DNA from: a virus
Taxonomy: Duplodnaviria > Heunggongvirae > Uroviricota > Caudoviricetes
Reading direction: 5' to 3' (one strand)
Virus record (IMG/VR): IMGVR_UViG_3300023487_000022
DNA length: 11,441 bases
This document shows, in pieces, positions 4,587-9,953 of the stretch. A model generated the notes under the pieces. It saw nothing but the letters and a program-made list of their open reading frames with translations. It did no database searches and was not told where the DNA came from. Numbering within the stretch: the first letter of the stretch is position 1; each line of letters begins with the position of its first letter. The position numbers were made by a program, and so were the translations under genes.

Positions 4587-5285
4587 TTACGGAACAGCGG
4601 TAATCAGATCGCAAATGCCTGTTTTAGTTAAATCACTATTCAGCTTCTGAAAATTGGCATTCAGCATTGCGGTATGTATTCGATTCTCAAGTTCAAAGAA
4701 GAGACCGATCTTGCCCTCTTTGGCTGCCACCTTCTTCCAAATATTCACCTGGTCATCTGCGATACGACTTGCGCAGGTGAACAAGAACGAACTCCCTCTG
4801 GGAAGGGATGTCGTGCTGTAGTATTCACCGTCAACTTCAATATACTTAGCTCGGAATGACTCCAGAGTTAGCTTTTTACCGCTCTCAGCCTGCTTTGTGT
4901 CTGCCTTGCTTGTCTTTTCCTGAACTTCAGGCTGTTTCTGCACAGGCTTTGGTGTCTCATTGACCACCGCAGTGCTGGCCGAACCATCCAAACTCTTGAG
5001 GCCATTAATTTGGATTAGATAAGCCAACTCCAGAGCCTTATCACCAGTGAGTTTTCCACGCATACTTACCCATTGACGCTGAACCGTCTTTAAGGCGTCT
5101 GCGTCCCCCGGGTTTGCTTTGAGTGCGTTGGAATAGGTAGAGCTAAGTTGTTCGTCTAATTTTGACAGGCGTTCGTTATCGCAGATTTTGTGTTCGATTT
5201 CTGCCGAAGCCTTTTGGCAGTCAAAGCTGGCTGCAAATACAGCCGGCGATGCCACCAACAATGATGCCAGTAGGATATTTTTCAT
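4587..5285 (-). CDS. Secreted protein with DUF1311 (LprI-like) N-terminal domain (232 aa)
   Basis: ATG at 5285 with GGAG upstream. Signal peptide MKNILLASLLVASPAVFA with an AXA-type cleavage site, followed by the Cys/Leu pattern FDCQKASAEIEHKICDNERLSKLDEQLSSTYSNALKA...QRQWVSMRG, which matches DUF1311 from memory. C-terminal domain unassigned. Confidence 0.78.
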   Translation of the reverse strand: MKNILLASLLVASPAVFAASFDCQKASAEIEHKICDNERLSKLDEQLSSTYSNALKANPGDADALKTVQRQWVSMRGKLTGDKALELAYLIQINGLKSLDGSASTAVVNETPKPVQKQPEVQEKTSKADTKQAESGKKLTLESFRAKYIEVDGEYYSTTSLPRGSSFLFTCASRIADDQVNIWKKVAAKEGKIGLFFELENRIHTAMLNANFQKLNSDLTKTGICDLITAVP

Positions 5286-5323
5286 ATTCACTCCATAAAT
5301 ATAAAAGCGCCTGACTATAGCAC

Positions 5324-5539
5324 TTAACCAATTGCTTCTCTCATCTGATTGTGAAGCTCTTTCAGCCCATCACGTACCGCGTTCATGATACGTTCCAGGG
5401 ATTGGTATCTGGGGTTTGGCACTGTTGGCCAACCGGCATACCACGGATCGTCACCAAACAGACTCAGCAGTTCGTTACCGACACCGAAACAGCAGCAACT
5501 TTCTTTTACGTCATCAGCGTTTTCTGCCTCGTCCCACAT
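5324..5539 (-). CDS. Hypothetical protein (71 aa), possibly the C-terminal remnant of a longer disrupted gene
   Basis: ORF track; in the same frame as 5774-6505 but separated from it by stops. The frame is open upstream of the ATG as far as 5626. Confidence 0.4.
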   Translation of the reverse strand: MWDEAENADDVKESCCCFGVGNELLSLFGDDPWYAGWPTVPNPRYQSLERIMNAVRDGLKELHNQMREAIG

Positions 5540-5773
5540 ATTGCGGGCCTGCTCTGCGTCGATTTCTCTCTCTCCCTGCGCAACTTTATGATTTCGGATT
5601 TGACGAAAAGCAGGTTTGCGTCGTTGTCATCGTCGACCGTACTGAAGTGGCACACTGAATTTGGCCGTCTGTAATGGGCAGATCCGGCAACTGTTTAAAA
5701 ACATCCATCTGCTCATGGATACGCAGAAACCACCTTGCCAGCTCCATCTGCTCACCGCGGGTGAGGAGATTAT

Positions 5774-6505
5774 TCAGCGGGGACTTAACAAAAGCGGAGA
5801 CTCGCTCGACAAGCCGGCCAGTGAACCAACATCCCCCCAATTCTGGTGTGTCAGCGCCCCGATACTTACCACTCCAGGCAGCACTTCTTTGTGGTTGTGG
5901 TAGTGCCCGGACAACAATAAACGGAAGCCGATATCTTTCAGTTCCTGTGCGTCGATGCCGACATCGGGCATGGTGGGGATCGCTTTGTTGATTGAGGTAT
6001 GTACAACAACATCATGGTTGTCACCATCCAGCCCGGAACGCAGCGTTTTGAGATCGCTGATAAGTTCTGCGTAGTTATTACGCCAGCTAATCAGATGGAC
6101 GGTTACGTCGCCCATTTTGATGGAATGAGGACGTTTGCCGCAGACGATTTCCACACCGATTGAGCGCAGAGAGGCTGCTGCATTGGCGCTGTATACGGAA
6201 TCGTTGGTTTCGAGGTCGTGGTTGCCAGCCAGCATTACCACCTTGAGACCCAACTCTTTGATGATCCACTCGTAAGTTTCGGTCACGAAATGCAGAACGG
6301 AAGGTGATATAGCACCGCGAACATGGAAGGTATCACCAGCTACCAGCATGTTCTTACAGCCAGCAGCTTTCATCGCTTTGGCCGCCTCCTTCGTAGCGTC
6401 CAGTTGGATCTCCAGCCGAGAGTTAAGCCCGTCAGCGTTTGTTGTCGCAAAAGCATCCCAACGATGATAATGGGGATCTGATATTACCCCGTATGGCAAT
6501 GTCAT
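5774..6505 (-). CDS. Calcineurin-like metallophosphoesterase (243 aa)
   Basis: ATG at 6505 with AAGGA upstream. Ordered motifs ISDPHYH, GDTFHVRG, GNHD and GHYHNH match the metallophosphatase signature (D-x-H, GD-x-x-D/H-R-G, GNH[DE], GH-x-H). Confidence 0.75.
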   Translation of the reverse strand: MTLPYGVISDPHYHRWDAFATTNADGLNSRLEIQLDATKEAAKAMKAAGCKNMLVAGDTFHVRGAISPSVLHFVTETYEWIIKELGLKVVMLAGNHDLETNDSVYSANAAASLRSIGVEIVCGKRPHSIKMGDVTVHLISWRNNYAELISDLKTLRSGLDGDNHDVVVHTSINKAIPTMPDVGIDAQELKDIGFRLLLSGHYHNHKEVLPGVVSIGALTHQNWGDVGSLAGLSSESPLLLSPR

Positions 6506-6901: not shown

Positions 6902-7546
6902 TTAAAACGTCTCTGAGGGCTTCTGACGCGCTCTGCTAATGTCTATTACCCCAGCTTTTGGACGAGGGTCTACAAGATTCAACTCTTCAGCACTGTGATA
7001 CTCCGTGTCGAACTCCCGATCGACATGGCGAATGTAAATGGCTGTCAGAAGGCTGTTATCATTCAGAAAGTGTCCGTAAGATTTGCGAATTACTTCGCCA
7101 ACCTTCTCAATCTTCTCTCCGCCCATGCAGAGATGGTTAAATCGGCTGTGTTTCCGCAGCATTTCATCCACCGGGCCTGAGTAGACCTTATCAACTCTCC
7201 CGAACCGGATGATATTTCCGGTATCAGCTTCAACCAGACAAACGAGTTTGCCAGGTTCGACACGATCTCGCCAAGTGACACCAGAGCGCAGTGTGTTGAA
7301 GTAGGGAGCATCCAATCCGATGATCGGTTTACGAAATGCTAGTAGTGGCACGTAACGTATGCAGCTGTTTAGGTGGAAATGCGCACCGGCGTCGTGGAGT
7401 TTAAGCCGGGTTTCGTTAATCGGGCATTTCGAAGCAATGCCGCAAAGGTCGCAGAGCAACTTCTGTTTGTTCAGACTAGTGTTTGATTCAATGGTGTAGG
7501 AGCCATCTTCAAGACGGCGAACCCAGCGCGTGCGTTTAAGATCCAT
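6902..7546 (-). CDS. Hypothetical protein (214 aa) with a CDLCGIASKC Cys cluster
   Basis: ORF track, ATG at 7546, weak RBS. No family recognised. Confidence 0.6.
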   Translation of the reverse strand: MDLKRTRWVRRLEDGSYTIESNTSLNKQKLLCDLCGIASKCPINETRLKLHDAGAHFHLNSCIRYVPLLAFRKPIIGLDAPYFNTLRSGVTWRDRVEPGKLVCLVEADTGNIIRFGRVDKVYSGPVDEMLRKHSRFNHLCMGGEKIEKVGEVIRKSYGHFLNDNSLLTAIYIRHVDREFDTEYHSAEELNLVDPRPKAGVIDISRARQKPSETF

Positions 7547-7645
7547 AATTCTTGTTCAAATAATTTTGTCCGGGGCAACGATAACGGATAAGGCGCACCG
7601 GAGTTTGCAAATGCCTGTTTACTTATTCACTTTATTCACAGGCCC

Positions 7646-7703
7646 GATCCAATATTTAGATCCCCAGAGAGATCCTACAGAAGATCAAAAGAGATCCCCG
7701 ATC
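7646..7703. promoter_or_regulatory. GATC (Dam site) cluster, 6 sites in 58 bp; origin-like element
   Basis: GATC at 7646, 7659, 7671, 7683, 7693 and 7700, next to an AT-rich segment and just upstream of iteron cluster 1; this resembles the arrangement at P1-type origins. Confidence 0.5.
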
Positions 7704-7744
7704 GTCTCCAGCGCTTGCGGTTACTGGCTTGAGAAGGGGTTACT

Positions 7745-7846
7745 ATCCACTATAGGGAGCAAAATAACCACTGTAGAGAGCATAATAACCGCTATGAAGA
7801 GCAAAACAACCTCTCTGGAGAGTAGTCGGTATCCACTGTAGTGAGT
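7745..7846 (+). repeat. Iteron cluster 1: 5 direct repeats, about 21 bp spacing, core A(A/T)CCACT(A/G)TAG(A/T)GAG
   Basis: Copies at 7745-7760, 7766-7781, 7787-7802, 7808-7823 (degenerate) and 7831-7846. Confidence 0.8.
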
Positions 7847-8127
7847 AGGAGACAATGTTTTAACTGGATAACTCCGAGCCTGTTTTTCTGCGGCAGATGG
7901 CTGATATTCTTGGAAATATTGTAAATTTTGCGTTGCGGCGTGTTTATTTCGATCACACATTATCCCCAGAAGGGGAGTGATGCCTGATTTTGTAATTATC
8001 TGATTTTTATACACAGGCCCGATCCAGTAATTCAGATCCCTGTTAGAACCAAAGAGAACCACAAAGACCCAAAGAGATCCCCGGCCCTTGCAAACCGTTG
8101 TGCCACATGGCTTTAGAGGTTATCGAT

Positions 8128-8249
8128 ATCCACTATAGTGAGAAGAACAACCACTATAGAGAGTAAATCAACCACTATGGAGAGTAGAAAAACCGCTGTA
8201 GGCGGTAGGATAACCACTGTGATGGGTGCTACTATCCACTGTAATCAGT
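8128..8249 (+). repeat. Iteron cluster 2: 6 direct repeats at 21-22 bp spacing, immediately upstream of repA
   Basis: Copies at 8128-8143, 8149-8164, 8170-8185, 8191-8206, 8212-8227 and 8234-8249. Confidence 0.82.
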
Positions 8250-8288
8250 AAAGGCACCCAAGCCGTCGAATAAAAAGAGACATTTGGA

Positions 8289-9344
8289 ATGAGCGTAAAC
8301 GACAATAAAAACATTGCGATAAGCGAAGCATTTTCCGAAACAGACAAAAAGACCGGCGAAGTTGTTACGTTAGTTCCTAACACCAACAACACAGTTCAGC
8401 CTGTTGCTCTGATGCGTCTTGGTCTCTTCGTTCCGACGCTGAAATCGACATCCAGGGGTAGAAAGGGGCAAATGGTCTCTATGGACGCCTCCGCTGAACT
8501 CAAACAGCTGTCTCTGGCCAAAGCCGAAGGGTACGAGGATATAAGGATTGCTGGTCTTCGTCTTGATATGGATAACGATTTCAAAACATGGGTGGGCATC
8601 ATCCACGCGTTCGCCAAGCACAAGGTTGTTGGTGACACCGTCACGTTGCCGTTCGTCGAGTTCGTCAGACTTTGTGGCATACCAACAGCCAGATCGTCCG
8701 CGAAGTTACGTAAGCGCCTGGACAGCTCTCTAAGTCGTATCGCCACAAACACCATCTCATTCCGCAGCAAAGGCTCTGAAGAGTATTACGTTACGCACCT
8801 TGTGCAGACGGCAAAGTACAGTACCAAGAATGACACGGTCGAACTGAAGGCCGATCCTAAGATTTTCGAACTTTACCAGTTCGACAAAAAGGTGCTTTTG
8901 CAACTTCGGGCCATCAACGAACTCTCCAGAAAGGAATCCGCGCAGGCGCTCTACACCTTCATTGAAAGTTTGCCACCAGACCCGGCGCCAATCTCATTGG
9001 CTCGCTTACGCGCCAGACTTAACTTAACCAGCCGCACCATTACCCAGAATGCGACAGTCAGGAAGGCGATGGAGCAGCTGCGAGAGATCGGCTATCTCGA
9101 TTACACTGAAGTGAAACGCGGCAGCTCGGTCTACTTCGTCATCCACTATAGACGGCCGAAGTTACGTTCGGCACTGCCGCCATCTATGGCTACGCCTGAA
9201 GAGCCAGAAGATATCTTGCCAGGTGATGATCCGGAGGACATTATCGATGTTGCCCCTGAAGAAAAAGACGGGGAAATGGTCATGTTGAGCAAGGAAGAAC
9301 TGGCGATTCTCGAAGAGCTGCGCAAGGCAAAGGCTCGCAAATAG
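8289..9344 (+). CDS. repA: Iteron-binding replication initiator RepA, RepFIB/P1 RepA family (351 aa)
   Basis: Product contains [57 protein letters not shown] and [10 protein letters not shown], which I recognise as conserved in P1 RepA and RepFIB RepA. Flanked on both sides by iterons. Confidence 0.9.
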
Positions 9345-9347
9345 CCC

Positions 9348-9947
9348 AACCACTGTAGAGAGTAAAAAGGCTCACTATCTACTGTAGTGAGCCTTTTTGT
9401 TTATCGGAAATGCAATATCCACTGTAGTGAGTAAAAGAAACCGAAGAATAACCACTGTAGGCAGTGCGCACAAATCGCGAAGTAAATGTTAGTGGTTGCA
9501 AACATAGATAAAACAAGGGCTGAGAGGTTAGCGGTCACTGGGTATCTCTGTTAAGTCTACTCTCTACAGCGGTTATCGTCGCTCTCCTCATTGTTGACTA
9601 TCCACTGTGAAGAGCAGAATTGGCTGACTTGACCTCTATCCACTGTAGTGAGTGGATATCCGTTTAAAACAGCGAAGATTTACTCTCCATAGTGGATATC
9701 CGCTGGAGGGGGCATTCCATCACTCTCTATAGTGGTTGTTTGTAGTCAGTGAACGCCTGTTTACTCACTACAGTGTATAGCGACCCCGATAATCACCAAT
9801 TTACTCACTACAGTGGATAGTTGATATCGTGGCAGAGGGTTTGCTCACTACAGTGGTTGGGGTGCATACCTGAAGGGTGTTCTACTCGCTACAGTGGTTA
9901 TGAGCCGGATTCACACGCGGTGAGCTGGCTACTCACCGCAGTGGATA
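9348..9947. repeat. Downstream iteron array, about 14 copies in both orientations (incA-like)
   Basis: Direct copies at 9348-9363, 9378-9393, 9417-9432, 9450-9465, 9598-9615 and 9638-9653; inverted copies at 9559-9576, 9682-9701, 9721-9738, 9763-9780, 9803-9820, 9843-9860, 9884-9901 and 9930-9947. Confidence 0.8.
9369..9402 (+). terminator. repA rho-independent terminator: GGCTCACTA-TCTACTG-TAGTGAGCC then TTTTTGTTT
   Basis: 9 bp stem beginning 25 nt after the repA stop, followed by a T-run; the stem is built from iteron-like sequence. Confidence 0.6.
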
Positions 9948-9953
9948 GTGTTA

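What the first reader, a model, noticed from the sequence alone, without database searches (positions are those of the whole stretch)
7600..8260. Tandemly duplicated origin module upstream of repA
Two consecutive units each contain an AT-rich stretch, the shared block CACAGGCCCGATCCA (7637-7651 and 8012-8026), the shared AAAGAGATCCCCG, GATC sites (six in the first unit, three in the second) and then an iteron cluster (5 and 6 copies). Known RepFIB/P1-type replicons have a single upstream iteron cluster forming the origin; a duplicated origin unit would raise the number of RepA-binding sites and might alter copy-number control.
Basis: partly seen in the sequence, partly recalled or inferred. 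Interest (0 to 1): 0.5.

Follow-up and report, generated by a model that had tools for sequence, protein, structure and literature searches.

The report
Two tandem P1-type origin modules
The DNA in front of this phage-plasmid's replication gene really does hold two head-to-tail copies of a P1-type replication origin, but this is an old, conserved layout shared by a whole clade of plasmids (including Yersinia pestis pMT1), not a recent oddity of this one.

Summary
The window comes from an SSU5/pMT1-type phage-plasmid with an IncFIB-typed replicon. The 742-bp gap before repA (8289-9344) holds two co-oriented modules, U1 (about 7610-7849) and U2 (about 7980-8252). Each has a DnaA box, an array of GATC repeats, a GC-rich spacer and phased 21-bp RepA iterons (5 in U1, 6 in U2). 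Both left halves are homologous to the P1 oriR core.

The duplication is old. The two left halves are no closer to each other (71%) than to P1 (68-72%).

The two-module layout is the norm in 333 PLSDB plasmids. It also occurs in Cronobacter pCTU1 and in Rahnella and Pantoea plasmids (RepA about 69-100% identical). Classical RepFIB (pO157), IncFIB(K), P1 and SSU5-like phages with another Rep have one module.

In all sampled two-module replicons, the distal module keeps 5-6 GATC sites. The repA-proximal module has lost interior sites, and in pCTU1 it has lost the whole array.

My best reading, which is inferred, is that U1 is the main Dam/DnaA-dependent origin. U2 would then be mainly the repA operator and an auxiliary RepA-binding site. 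Function is untested. Interest is moderate.

The parts
6902..7546 (-). Divergent upstream gene. It is a hypothetical protein, annotated as ASCH-domain in phage Cyrano, and marks the left border of the intergenic region.
   Evidence: ORF list. Annotation of the identical plasmid and of SSU5 and Cyrano. No Pfam hit.
7623..7640 (+). U1: two contiguous DnaA-box-like 9-mers, TTATTCACT (1 mismatch) and TTATTCACA (perfect TTATNCACA). The tandem arrangement matches P1 oriR.
   Evidence: Alignment to P1 oriR.
7646..7703 (+). U1: array of six GATC (Dam) sites spaced 13, 12, 12, 10 and 7 bp apart. It is homologous to the GATC repeat array of the P1 oriR core.
7704..7742 (+). U1: GC-rich spacer. About 50 bp separates the last array GATC from the first iteron.
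   Evidence: I derived the distance from the GATC positions and unit lengths.
7743..7849 (+). U1: five 21-bp RepA iterons starting at 7743, 7764, 7785, 7806 and 7829.
   Evidence: Weight-matrix scan, repeat families, TRF.
7850..7979 (.). Inter-unit spacer. It is the least conserved segment (62% identity to Cyrano). It contains a DnaA-like box, TTATCCCCA, at 7960-7968.
8007..8015 (+). U2: a single perfect DnaA box, TTATACACA. The second box of the tandem pair is deleted relative to U1.
8021..8079 (+). U2: a partly decayed GATC array. GATC remains at 8021, 8035 and 8076. The interior slots read AGAACC (8045, 8055) and AGACCC (8065), with one extra roughly 10-bp repeat.
8080..8125 (+). U2: GC-rich spacer, again about 50 bp from the last GATC to the first iteron.
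   Evidence: I derived the distance from the GATC positions and unit lengths.
8126..8252 (+). U2: six 21-bp RepA iterons starting at 8126, 8147, 8168, 8189, 8210 and 8232. By analogy with P1 PrepA, the repA promoter is expected inside this cluster. Candidate -10 hexamers are TATAGT 8134-8139 (tool scan) and TGTAAT 8240-8245 (read by eye; the surrounding stretch is near-invariant in SSU5 and Cyrano).
   Evidence: P1 promoter layout. The promoter assignment is inferred, not shown.
8289..9344 (+). repA, a Rep_3-family initiator of 351 aa.
   Evidence: Pfam PF01051, E = 2.4e-11. 95% aa identity to SSU5 and pMT1 RepA, 62% to pO157 RepFIB and 47% to P1 RepA.
9360..9402 (+). Hairpin followed by a T-run directly after the repA stop codon. 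It is probably the repA terminator, and it embeds the iteron at 9375.
   Evidence: Fold of -22.1 kcal/mol, z = -7.5.
9346..9948 (.). Downstream incA-like control array of about 15 iterons: 7 on the + strand (one of them weak) and 8 on the - strand.
   Evidence: The number of units varies among near-identical plasmids.

Best explanation
This is the plasmid-prophage replicon of an SSU5/pMT1-type phage-plasmid. It is a P1/RepFIB-type iteron replicon whose origin core exists as two old paralogous copies in tandem. The core consists of DnaA box(es), a GATC repeat array, a GC-rich spacer of fixed length and five phased iterons.

Shown:
- Both copies are homologous to the P1 oriR core.
- Both carry iterons of the same type as the downstream control array.
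- Both are more conserved than the spacer between them.
- The pair travels as one cassette with repA in very different plasmid backbones.

Inferred:
- RepA binds both clusters.
- The distal copy, U1, keeps the full P1-like equipment (tandem DnaA boxes and 5-6 Dam sites, one per helical turn). It is the main site of DnaA/RepA-dependent, methylation-controlled opening.
- The repA-proximal copy, U2, has lost interior Dam sites and one DnaA box but keeps its iterons. It serves mainly as the autoregulated repA promoter/operator and as an extra RepA-binding, pairing (handcuffing) partner. It may retain residual origin activity.
- In P1, one iteron cluster does both jobs. Here the two jobs appear to be split between two paralogues.
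- Together with about 15 downstream iterons, the 11 upstream sites would hold copy number low by titration and handcuffing.
For: Architecture and homology to P1 oriR.

U1/U2 similarity far above chance.

Perfect DnaA boxes only at the two unit edges.

GATC slot table:
- All single-origin relatives (P1, pO157, IncFIB(K), pJN2-26, PhiR41_1) keep 5-6 GATC at 7-14 bp spacing.
- All distal units (window, SSU5, pMT1, Cyrano, Rahnella, Pantoea, pCTU1) do the same.
- All proximal units have only 3-4, with interior slots changed to GAAC, GACC or GTTC.
- The pCTU1 proximal region has 1 GATC, no array and irregular iteron spacing of 20/20/42/40 bp. In pCTU1 the distal unit is therefore the only complete origin module.

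Constraint on both units: window versus Cyrano is 75-83% in U1 and 73-86% across U2's three segments (83-86% in its GATC array and iterons), against 62% in the spacer. Window versus SSU5 is 95-96% in U1's GATC array and iterons (89% in its short spacer), higher than in repA itself at 91.5%.

The cassette occurs with unrelated flanks: an ASCH-like gene in the phage-plasmids, parA in pCTU1 and a TetR gene in Rahnella.

Lineage-specific iteron variants appear in both clusters. For example, Pantoea has ...CGAG in both U1 and U2 (read from the sequence).

In P1 the repA promoter lies inside the repA-proximal iterons.
Against: There are no functional data. I found no experimental dissection of this replicon type in the searchable literature.

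U2 keeps origin-like geometry:
- The DnaA box to first GATC distance is identical to U1.
- The distance from the last GATC to the first iteron is about 50 bp, as in U1 and P1.
- Its extra length of 8-11 bp over the other units is close to one helical turn (positions).
- Its decayed repeats are themselves conserved among four lineages.
U2 may therefore still fire.

In P1 and RepFIB the origin is the repA-adjacent cluster, which is the position U2 occupies.

The repA promoter could not be pinned down. The tool's only + strand hit in U2 (8112-8139) has a -10 hexamer that is not conserved in SSU5, pMT1 or Cyrano.
Confidence: 0.5

Rival explanations
1. U2 is the working origin and operator, exactly as incC is in P1 and BCDD'D'' in RepFIB. 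U1 is an auxiliary RepA-binding control locus, effectively a second incA on the other side, which lowers copy number by titration and handcuffing.
For: U2 occupies the repA-adjacent position of the P1 and RepFIB origin. In the comparison with Cyrano, U2's GATC array and iterons (83-86%) are slightly more conserved than the matching U1 segments (75-83%). U2 preserves spacer length and phasing. Extra upstream iterons that look like control sites exist in IncFIB(K).
Against: A pure control locus needs only iterons. Yet U1 keeps tandem DnaA boxes and a full GATC array in every sampled replicon, while U2 is the copy that loses them. In pCTU1 the proximal region has no GATC array at all.
Confidence: 0.25
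2. Both modules are active origins served by one initiator. They could be redundant or used under different conditions, for example one Dam-rich and sequestrable, the other Dam-poor.
For: Both have a perfect DnaA box, an array of GATC-type repeats (three intact GATC in U2), a spacer of fixed length and phased iterons. Both are under constraint.
Against: pCTU1 lacks the proximal GATC array. The interior Dam sites of U2 are lost in all sampled lineages. From my own knowledge of the P1 literature (Brendler, Abeles and Austin 1991), which I could not re-read here, these repeats are critical for P1 origin function.
Confidence: 0.15
3. U1 is an inert relic, either a decaying duplicate or the leftover origin of a replicon displaced when the rep cassette was swapped in the SSU5-like backbone.
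For: SSU5-like phages with a different Rep (pJN2-26, PhiR41_1) have one module at the same place next to the ASCH-like gene. Its left half resembles U1 at 71-77% identity.
Against: The U1 iterons are of the current RepA type, not the TATGCTGTCAGCGGT type. U1 is more conserved than the neighbouring spacer. The U1-U2 pair also occurs in non-phage plasmids with unrelated flanks.
Confidence: 0.03

Closest known systems
Bacteriophage P1 plasmid replicon (oriR/incC - repA - incA)
   Same: The parts come in the same order: tandem DnaA boxes, a GATC repeat array, a GC-rich spacer, five iterons at 21-22 bp spacing, repA, then a downstream control iteron array. The left half of each unit is 68-72% identical to the P1 oriR core. 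The initiator is a Rep_3-family protein, 47% identical over aligned columns.
   Different: P1 has one module and this replicon has two. The iteron sequence differs. P1 incA has 9 iterons in one orientation, whereas here there are about 15 in both orientations.
Classical RepFIB of P307/F/pO157
   Same: repA is flanked by upstream origin-associated iterons and downstream control iterons (PMC11983097). The pO157 origin left half is homologous, with 5 GATC sites. RepA is 62% identical.
   Different: pO157 has a single upstream module and no second cluster in the 660 bp further upstream. Its iteron sequence is different.
pMT1 (Yersinia pestis) / SSU5 / Cyrano replicon (typed IncFIB)
   Same: The same two-module layout, with 5 + 6 iterons, the same GATC pattern and the same downstream array. 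Nucleotide identity is 89-90% to SSU5 and pMT1 and 77-80% to Cyrano. RepA is 91-95% identical. The window is a member of this group.
   Different: Only point differences, plus copy-number variation in the downstream array. The left edge of Cyrano's U1 is more P1-like.
Cronobacter pCTU1, Rahnella aceris p1 and Pantoea agglomerans plasmid replicons
   Same: Each has a distal complete module plus a repA-proximal iteron cluster. RepA is 81%, 77% and about 69% identical respectively. The proximal unit has lost interior GATC sites.
   Different: The pCTU1 proximal unit has lost the whole GATC array and its regular phasing. The Rahnella and Pantoea proximal units have 5 iterons, not 6. The flanking genes are different.
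IncFIB(K) Klebsiella replicon
   Same: It has a homologous single origin module with 6 GATC sites. It also has additional iterons further upstream.
   Different: The extra upstream iterons come without a second DnaA-box and GATC module. RepA is 53% identical.

Membership tests
P1/RepFIB-type iteron replicon | Rep_3-family (winged-helix WH1/WH2) initiator gene | tested here: met
   PF01051 Rep3_N, E = 2.4e-11, 44.6 bits against a cut-off of 22.4. Rep3_C falls just below its cut-off. The protein aligns with P1, pO157 and IncFIB(K) Rep proteins.
P1/RepFIB-type iteron replicon | Upstream origin core: DnaA box(es), a GATC-containing repeat array, a GC-rich spacer and about five iterons at 21-22 bp phasing | tested here: met
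   Present twice. Homologous to the annotated P1 oriR.
P1/RepFIB-type iteron replicon | Downstream iteron array acting as the copy-control/incompatibility locus (incA in P1, E-K in RepFIB) | tested here: met
   The sequence feature is present: about 15 iterons at 9346-9948. Its control function was not tested.
P1/RepFIB-type iteron replicon | repA promoter inside the origin iterons, with autorepression by RepA | tested here: inconclusive
   Only weak or non-conserved sigma-70 matches lie inside the U2 iterons. This needs transcript mapping.
P1/RepFIB-type iteron replicon | Dependence of initiation on DnaA and on Dam methylation / SeqA sequestration | not testable with these tools
   Only the binding-site sequences can be seen.
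SSU5/pMT1-type IncFIB phage-plasmid replicon | Close nucleotide identity across ori-repA-incA, and synteny with the ASCH-like gene upstream and the cra-like gene downstream | tested here: met
   100% identity to E. coli plasmid p1585m1_B, 89% to SSU5 and 89.5% to pMT1 (the pMT1 figure is over the 742-bp intergenic region), with the same neighbouring genes where annotated.
Classical RepFIB (P307/F/pO157) | A single upstream iteron cluster (BCDD'D'') adjoining one origin region | tested here: not met
   There are two modules here and one in pO157. RepA is only 62% identical. This is a related lineage, not a member.
Recent tandem duplication | The two copies are much more similar to each other than to orthologues elsewhere | tested here: not met
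   Left halves: U1-U2 71%, U1-P1 72%, U2-P1 68%. Units of one genome never cluster together in a neighbour-joining tree (bootstrap 0.12 and 0.01). U2 units of SSU5-type and Rahnella replicons cluster together (0.6).

The most novel reading that the evidence does not exclude
One initiator serves two differently wired paralogous origin modules. The distal module is Dam-rich and fully sequestrable. The repA-proximal module is Dam-poor, having shed its interior methylation sites in every sampled two-module replicon. This would be a case of subfunctionalisation of a replication origin: origin firing is uncoupled from initiator autoregulation, or a second origin exists that escapes methylation control. 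It is conserved from Pantoea megaplasmids to Y. pestis pMT1 and SSU5-like phage-plasmids.
Probability: 0.3. Interest if true: 0.55.

Novelty: new variant of a known kind. Interest (0 to 1): 0.38.

Why it matters
This replicon type maintains Y. pestis pMT1, the SSU5-like phage-plasmids of E. coli, Salmonella and Enterobacter, and related Pantoea, Rahnella and Cronobacter plasmids. It is usually typed simply as 'IncFIB'.

Its origin region is a conserved pair of paralogous modules with different Dam-site content. That gives a concrete and easily testable model for how origin firing, initiator autoregulation and copy-number control are divided in cis. It also bears on incompatibility and plasmid-curing designs that target FIB iterons, and on interpreting copy-number changes in phage-plasmids.

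It does not change the general picture of iteron replicons.

Tried and rejected
- Literature: seven full-text searches for a description of the pMT1/pHCM2/SSU5 origin or of duplicated iteron origins found nothing relevant.
- Papers not held: the 1998 pMT1 sequence papers, the RepFIB paper of Spiers et al. 1993 and a 2026 preprint on phage-plasmid heteroresistance. I therefore cannot exclude that the two clusters were noted descriptively in 1998.
- A 'duplicated origin' hit in a Burkholderia paper was irrelevant.
- Rfam found no RNA family anywhere in the window.
- No IHF consensus site lies in 7500-8300.
- Promoter scan: the minus-strand hit in the inter-unit spacer (7946-7918) is not conserved in SSU5 and is probably chance. 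The repA promoter remains unassigned.
- The idea that U1 is the leftover origin of a displaced rep cassette was rejected, because its iterons are of the current type and the pair occurs in unrelated backbones.
- Technical note: only the first newly fetched locus reached the Python sandbox, so sequences were carried over through alignments or typed in.

Full report
**What the window is.** The region 7550-9900 is 100% identical to E. coli plasmid p1585m1_B, which is 113 kb, non-mobilizable and typed IncFIB. It is 89% identical to Salmonella phage SSU5 and about 80% identical to phage Cyrano. 338 PLSDB records match it, mostly non-mobilizable plasmids from Escherichia, Enterobacter, Yersinia, Salmonella and Citrobacter; those listed are about 95-190 kb. 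repA (8289-9344) encodes a Rep_3-family initiator. It is 95% identical to SSU5 and Y. pestis pMT1 RepA, 62% to pO157 RepFIB and 47% to P1 RepA. The window is therefore the plasmid-maintenance replicon of an SSU5/pMT1-type phage-plasmid.

**Checking the observation.**
- A weight-matrix scan finds five iterons at 7743-7849 and six at 8126-8252. All are co-oriented at 21-23 bp spacing, with essentially no hits elsewhere in the window outside the replicon.
- TRF reports the two 21-bp arrays independently.
- The two units align at 80% identity overall. Their non-iteron halves align at 105/128, about 24 standard deviations above shuffled controls.
- Six GATC in 58 bp has P about 1e-7 at the window's own density.
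- The only two perfect DnaA boxes in 11.4 kb sit at the same relative position in each unit.

**What each unit is.** I aligned both units with the annotated P1 oriR and with the single origins of two SSU5-like phages that use a different Rep (pJN2-26 and PhiR41_1). Both units are homologues of the P1 origin core. The shared order is tandem DnaA boxes, a GATC-containing repeat array with about one site per helical turn, a GC-rich spacer, then five phased iterons. U1 retains the tandem DnaA boxes and six GATC sites. U2 has one perfect box plus a one-mismatch box 47 bp upstream. It has three GATC sites, three decayed repeats (AGAACC, AGAACC, AGACCC), one extra repeat and a sixth iteron.

**How old and how widespread the layout is.**
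- SSU5, Cyrano and pMT1 all have the 5 + 6 layout. 333 PLSDB records carry the whole 742-bp intergenic region at 80% coverage or more.
- More distant relatives also have two clusters. These are the Rahnella aceris p1 plasmid (RepA 77%), a Pantoea agglomerans plasmid (about 69%) and Cronobacter pCTU1 (81% over aligned columns).
- One module is found in pO157 RepFIB, IncFIB(K), PhiR41_1, pJN2-26 and P1. That agrees with the published description of FIB replicons as one upstream and one downstream iteron set (PMC11983097).
- The left halves of U1 and U2 are 71% identical to each other, and 72% and 68% identical to P1.
- In a neighbour-joining tree, units of the same genome never pair, while the U2 units of SSU5-type and Rahnella replicons group together with bootstrap 0.6.

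The duplication therefore predates the divergence of these lineages. It is the normal state for this sub-family.

**Evidence that both units are functional.** Against Cyrano, the inter-unit spacer is 62% identical. U1 is 75-83% identical, and U2's GATC array and iterons are 83-86% (its short spacer is 73%). Against SSU5, U1's GATC array and iterons are 95-96% identical, which is higher than repA itself. The U1 iterons match the current RepA-type consensus rather than that of neighbouring SSU5-like lineages. The pair also travels with repA into unrelated backbones.

**Evidence for specialisation.** The GATC slot table is the most informative result.
- Every single-origin relative and every distal unit keeps 5-6 GATC sites at 7-14 bp spacing.
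- Every proximal unit has lost interior sites. SSU5-type replicons and Rahnella carry GAAC and GACC at the same slots, and Pantoea carries GTTC at one.
- The pCTU1 proximal region has no array and irregular iteron spacing. In pCTU1 the distal unit is the only complete origin.

I therefore favour U1 as the principal Dam/DnaA-dependent origin. U2 would mainly be the repA operator/promoter and an extra RepA-binding, handcuffing partner. That would split two roles that P1 incC combines.

There are counter-points. U2 keeps the distance from the DnaA box to the first GATC, the roughly 50-bp distance from the last GATC to the first iteron, and iteron phasing. It is 8-11 bp longer than the other units, close to one helical turn (positions). 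Its decayed repeats are themselves conserved. U2 may therefore still fire, or it may even be the origin with U1 as a control locus. The promoter could not be fixed from sequence. All functional statements here are inference.

**Novelty.** The replicon family is long known and many identical sequences are in GenBank. What I could not find described is the paired-origin architecture, its phylogenetic spread and the systematic loss of Dam sites in the proximal copy. I rate this a new variant of a known kind, of moderate interest to plasmid-replication specialists.

**Other observations.**
- The downstream control array gains or loses 40-41 bp iteron units among plasmids that are 99% identical or more, while the upstream pair keeps its length.
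- A strong terminator-like hairpin after repA embeds an iteron.
- An iteron-like site lies inside repA in all lineages that share this iteron type.

Noticed in passing
window 9346-9948; L014 and L015: Among plasmids 99% identical or more, the downstream incA-like iteron array varies in unit number. pGS04EC-1 lacks one 40-bp unit (the iteron at 9760). The CT01 plasmid has 83 extra bp, two more units, near 9840. The upstream two-module region keeps its length. This natural variation could shift copy number.
   Followed up: partly
window 9360-9402: A strong hairpin (-22.1 kcal/mol, z = -7.5) followed by a T-run lies directly after the repA stop codon. It is probably the repA terminator. Its stem contains the iteron at 9375, so RepA binding and termination might interact. 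The simple terminator scan did not list it.
   Followed up: partly
window 9139-9159: An iteron-like sequence, TCATCCACTATAGACGGCCGA, lies inside the repA coding region, where it encodes the conserved IHYRRP motif. It is present in SSU5, Cyrano, pMT1 and pCTU1. It is unclear whether it is a RepA site or just a consequence of protein conservation.
   Followed up: no
L011 (Klebsiella IncFIB(K)) 1451-1702: The IncFIB(K) replicon has extra iterons, in both orientations, 90-350 bp upstream of its single origin module. They lack a second DnaA-box and GATC array. This is a different way of adding upstream RepA sites.
   Followed up: partly
L004 (Cyrano) 160-200 versus window 7623-7660: In Cyrano the left edge of U1 reads TTATCCACTGGATAGATCC, as in P1 and close to PhiR41_1. 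In the window, SSU5 and (with one base changed) pMT1, the U1 block CACAGGCCCGATCC matches U2. This suggests local gene conversion between the two units, or recombination with a relative.
   Followed up: partly
window about 4759-5972, and just left of the window: The identical plasmid is annotated with an IS3-family transposase at this position and an IS26 copy just upstream of the window. SSU5 instead has a GNAT acetyltransferase gene next to the ASCH-like gene. The region left of the replicon is therefore rearranged by insertion sequences.
   Followed up: no
window 7806-7826: The fourth U1 iteron, ACAACCTCTCTGGAGAGTAGT, departs from the consensus in the same way (…CTGG.GAG) in SSU5, pMT1, Cyrano, Rahnella and Pantoea (pCTU1's fourth iteron is also weak but reads differently). 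It is a position-specific conserved variant of unknown role.
   Followed up: no
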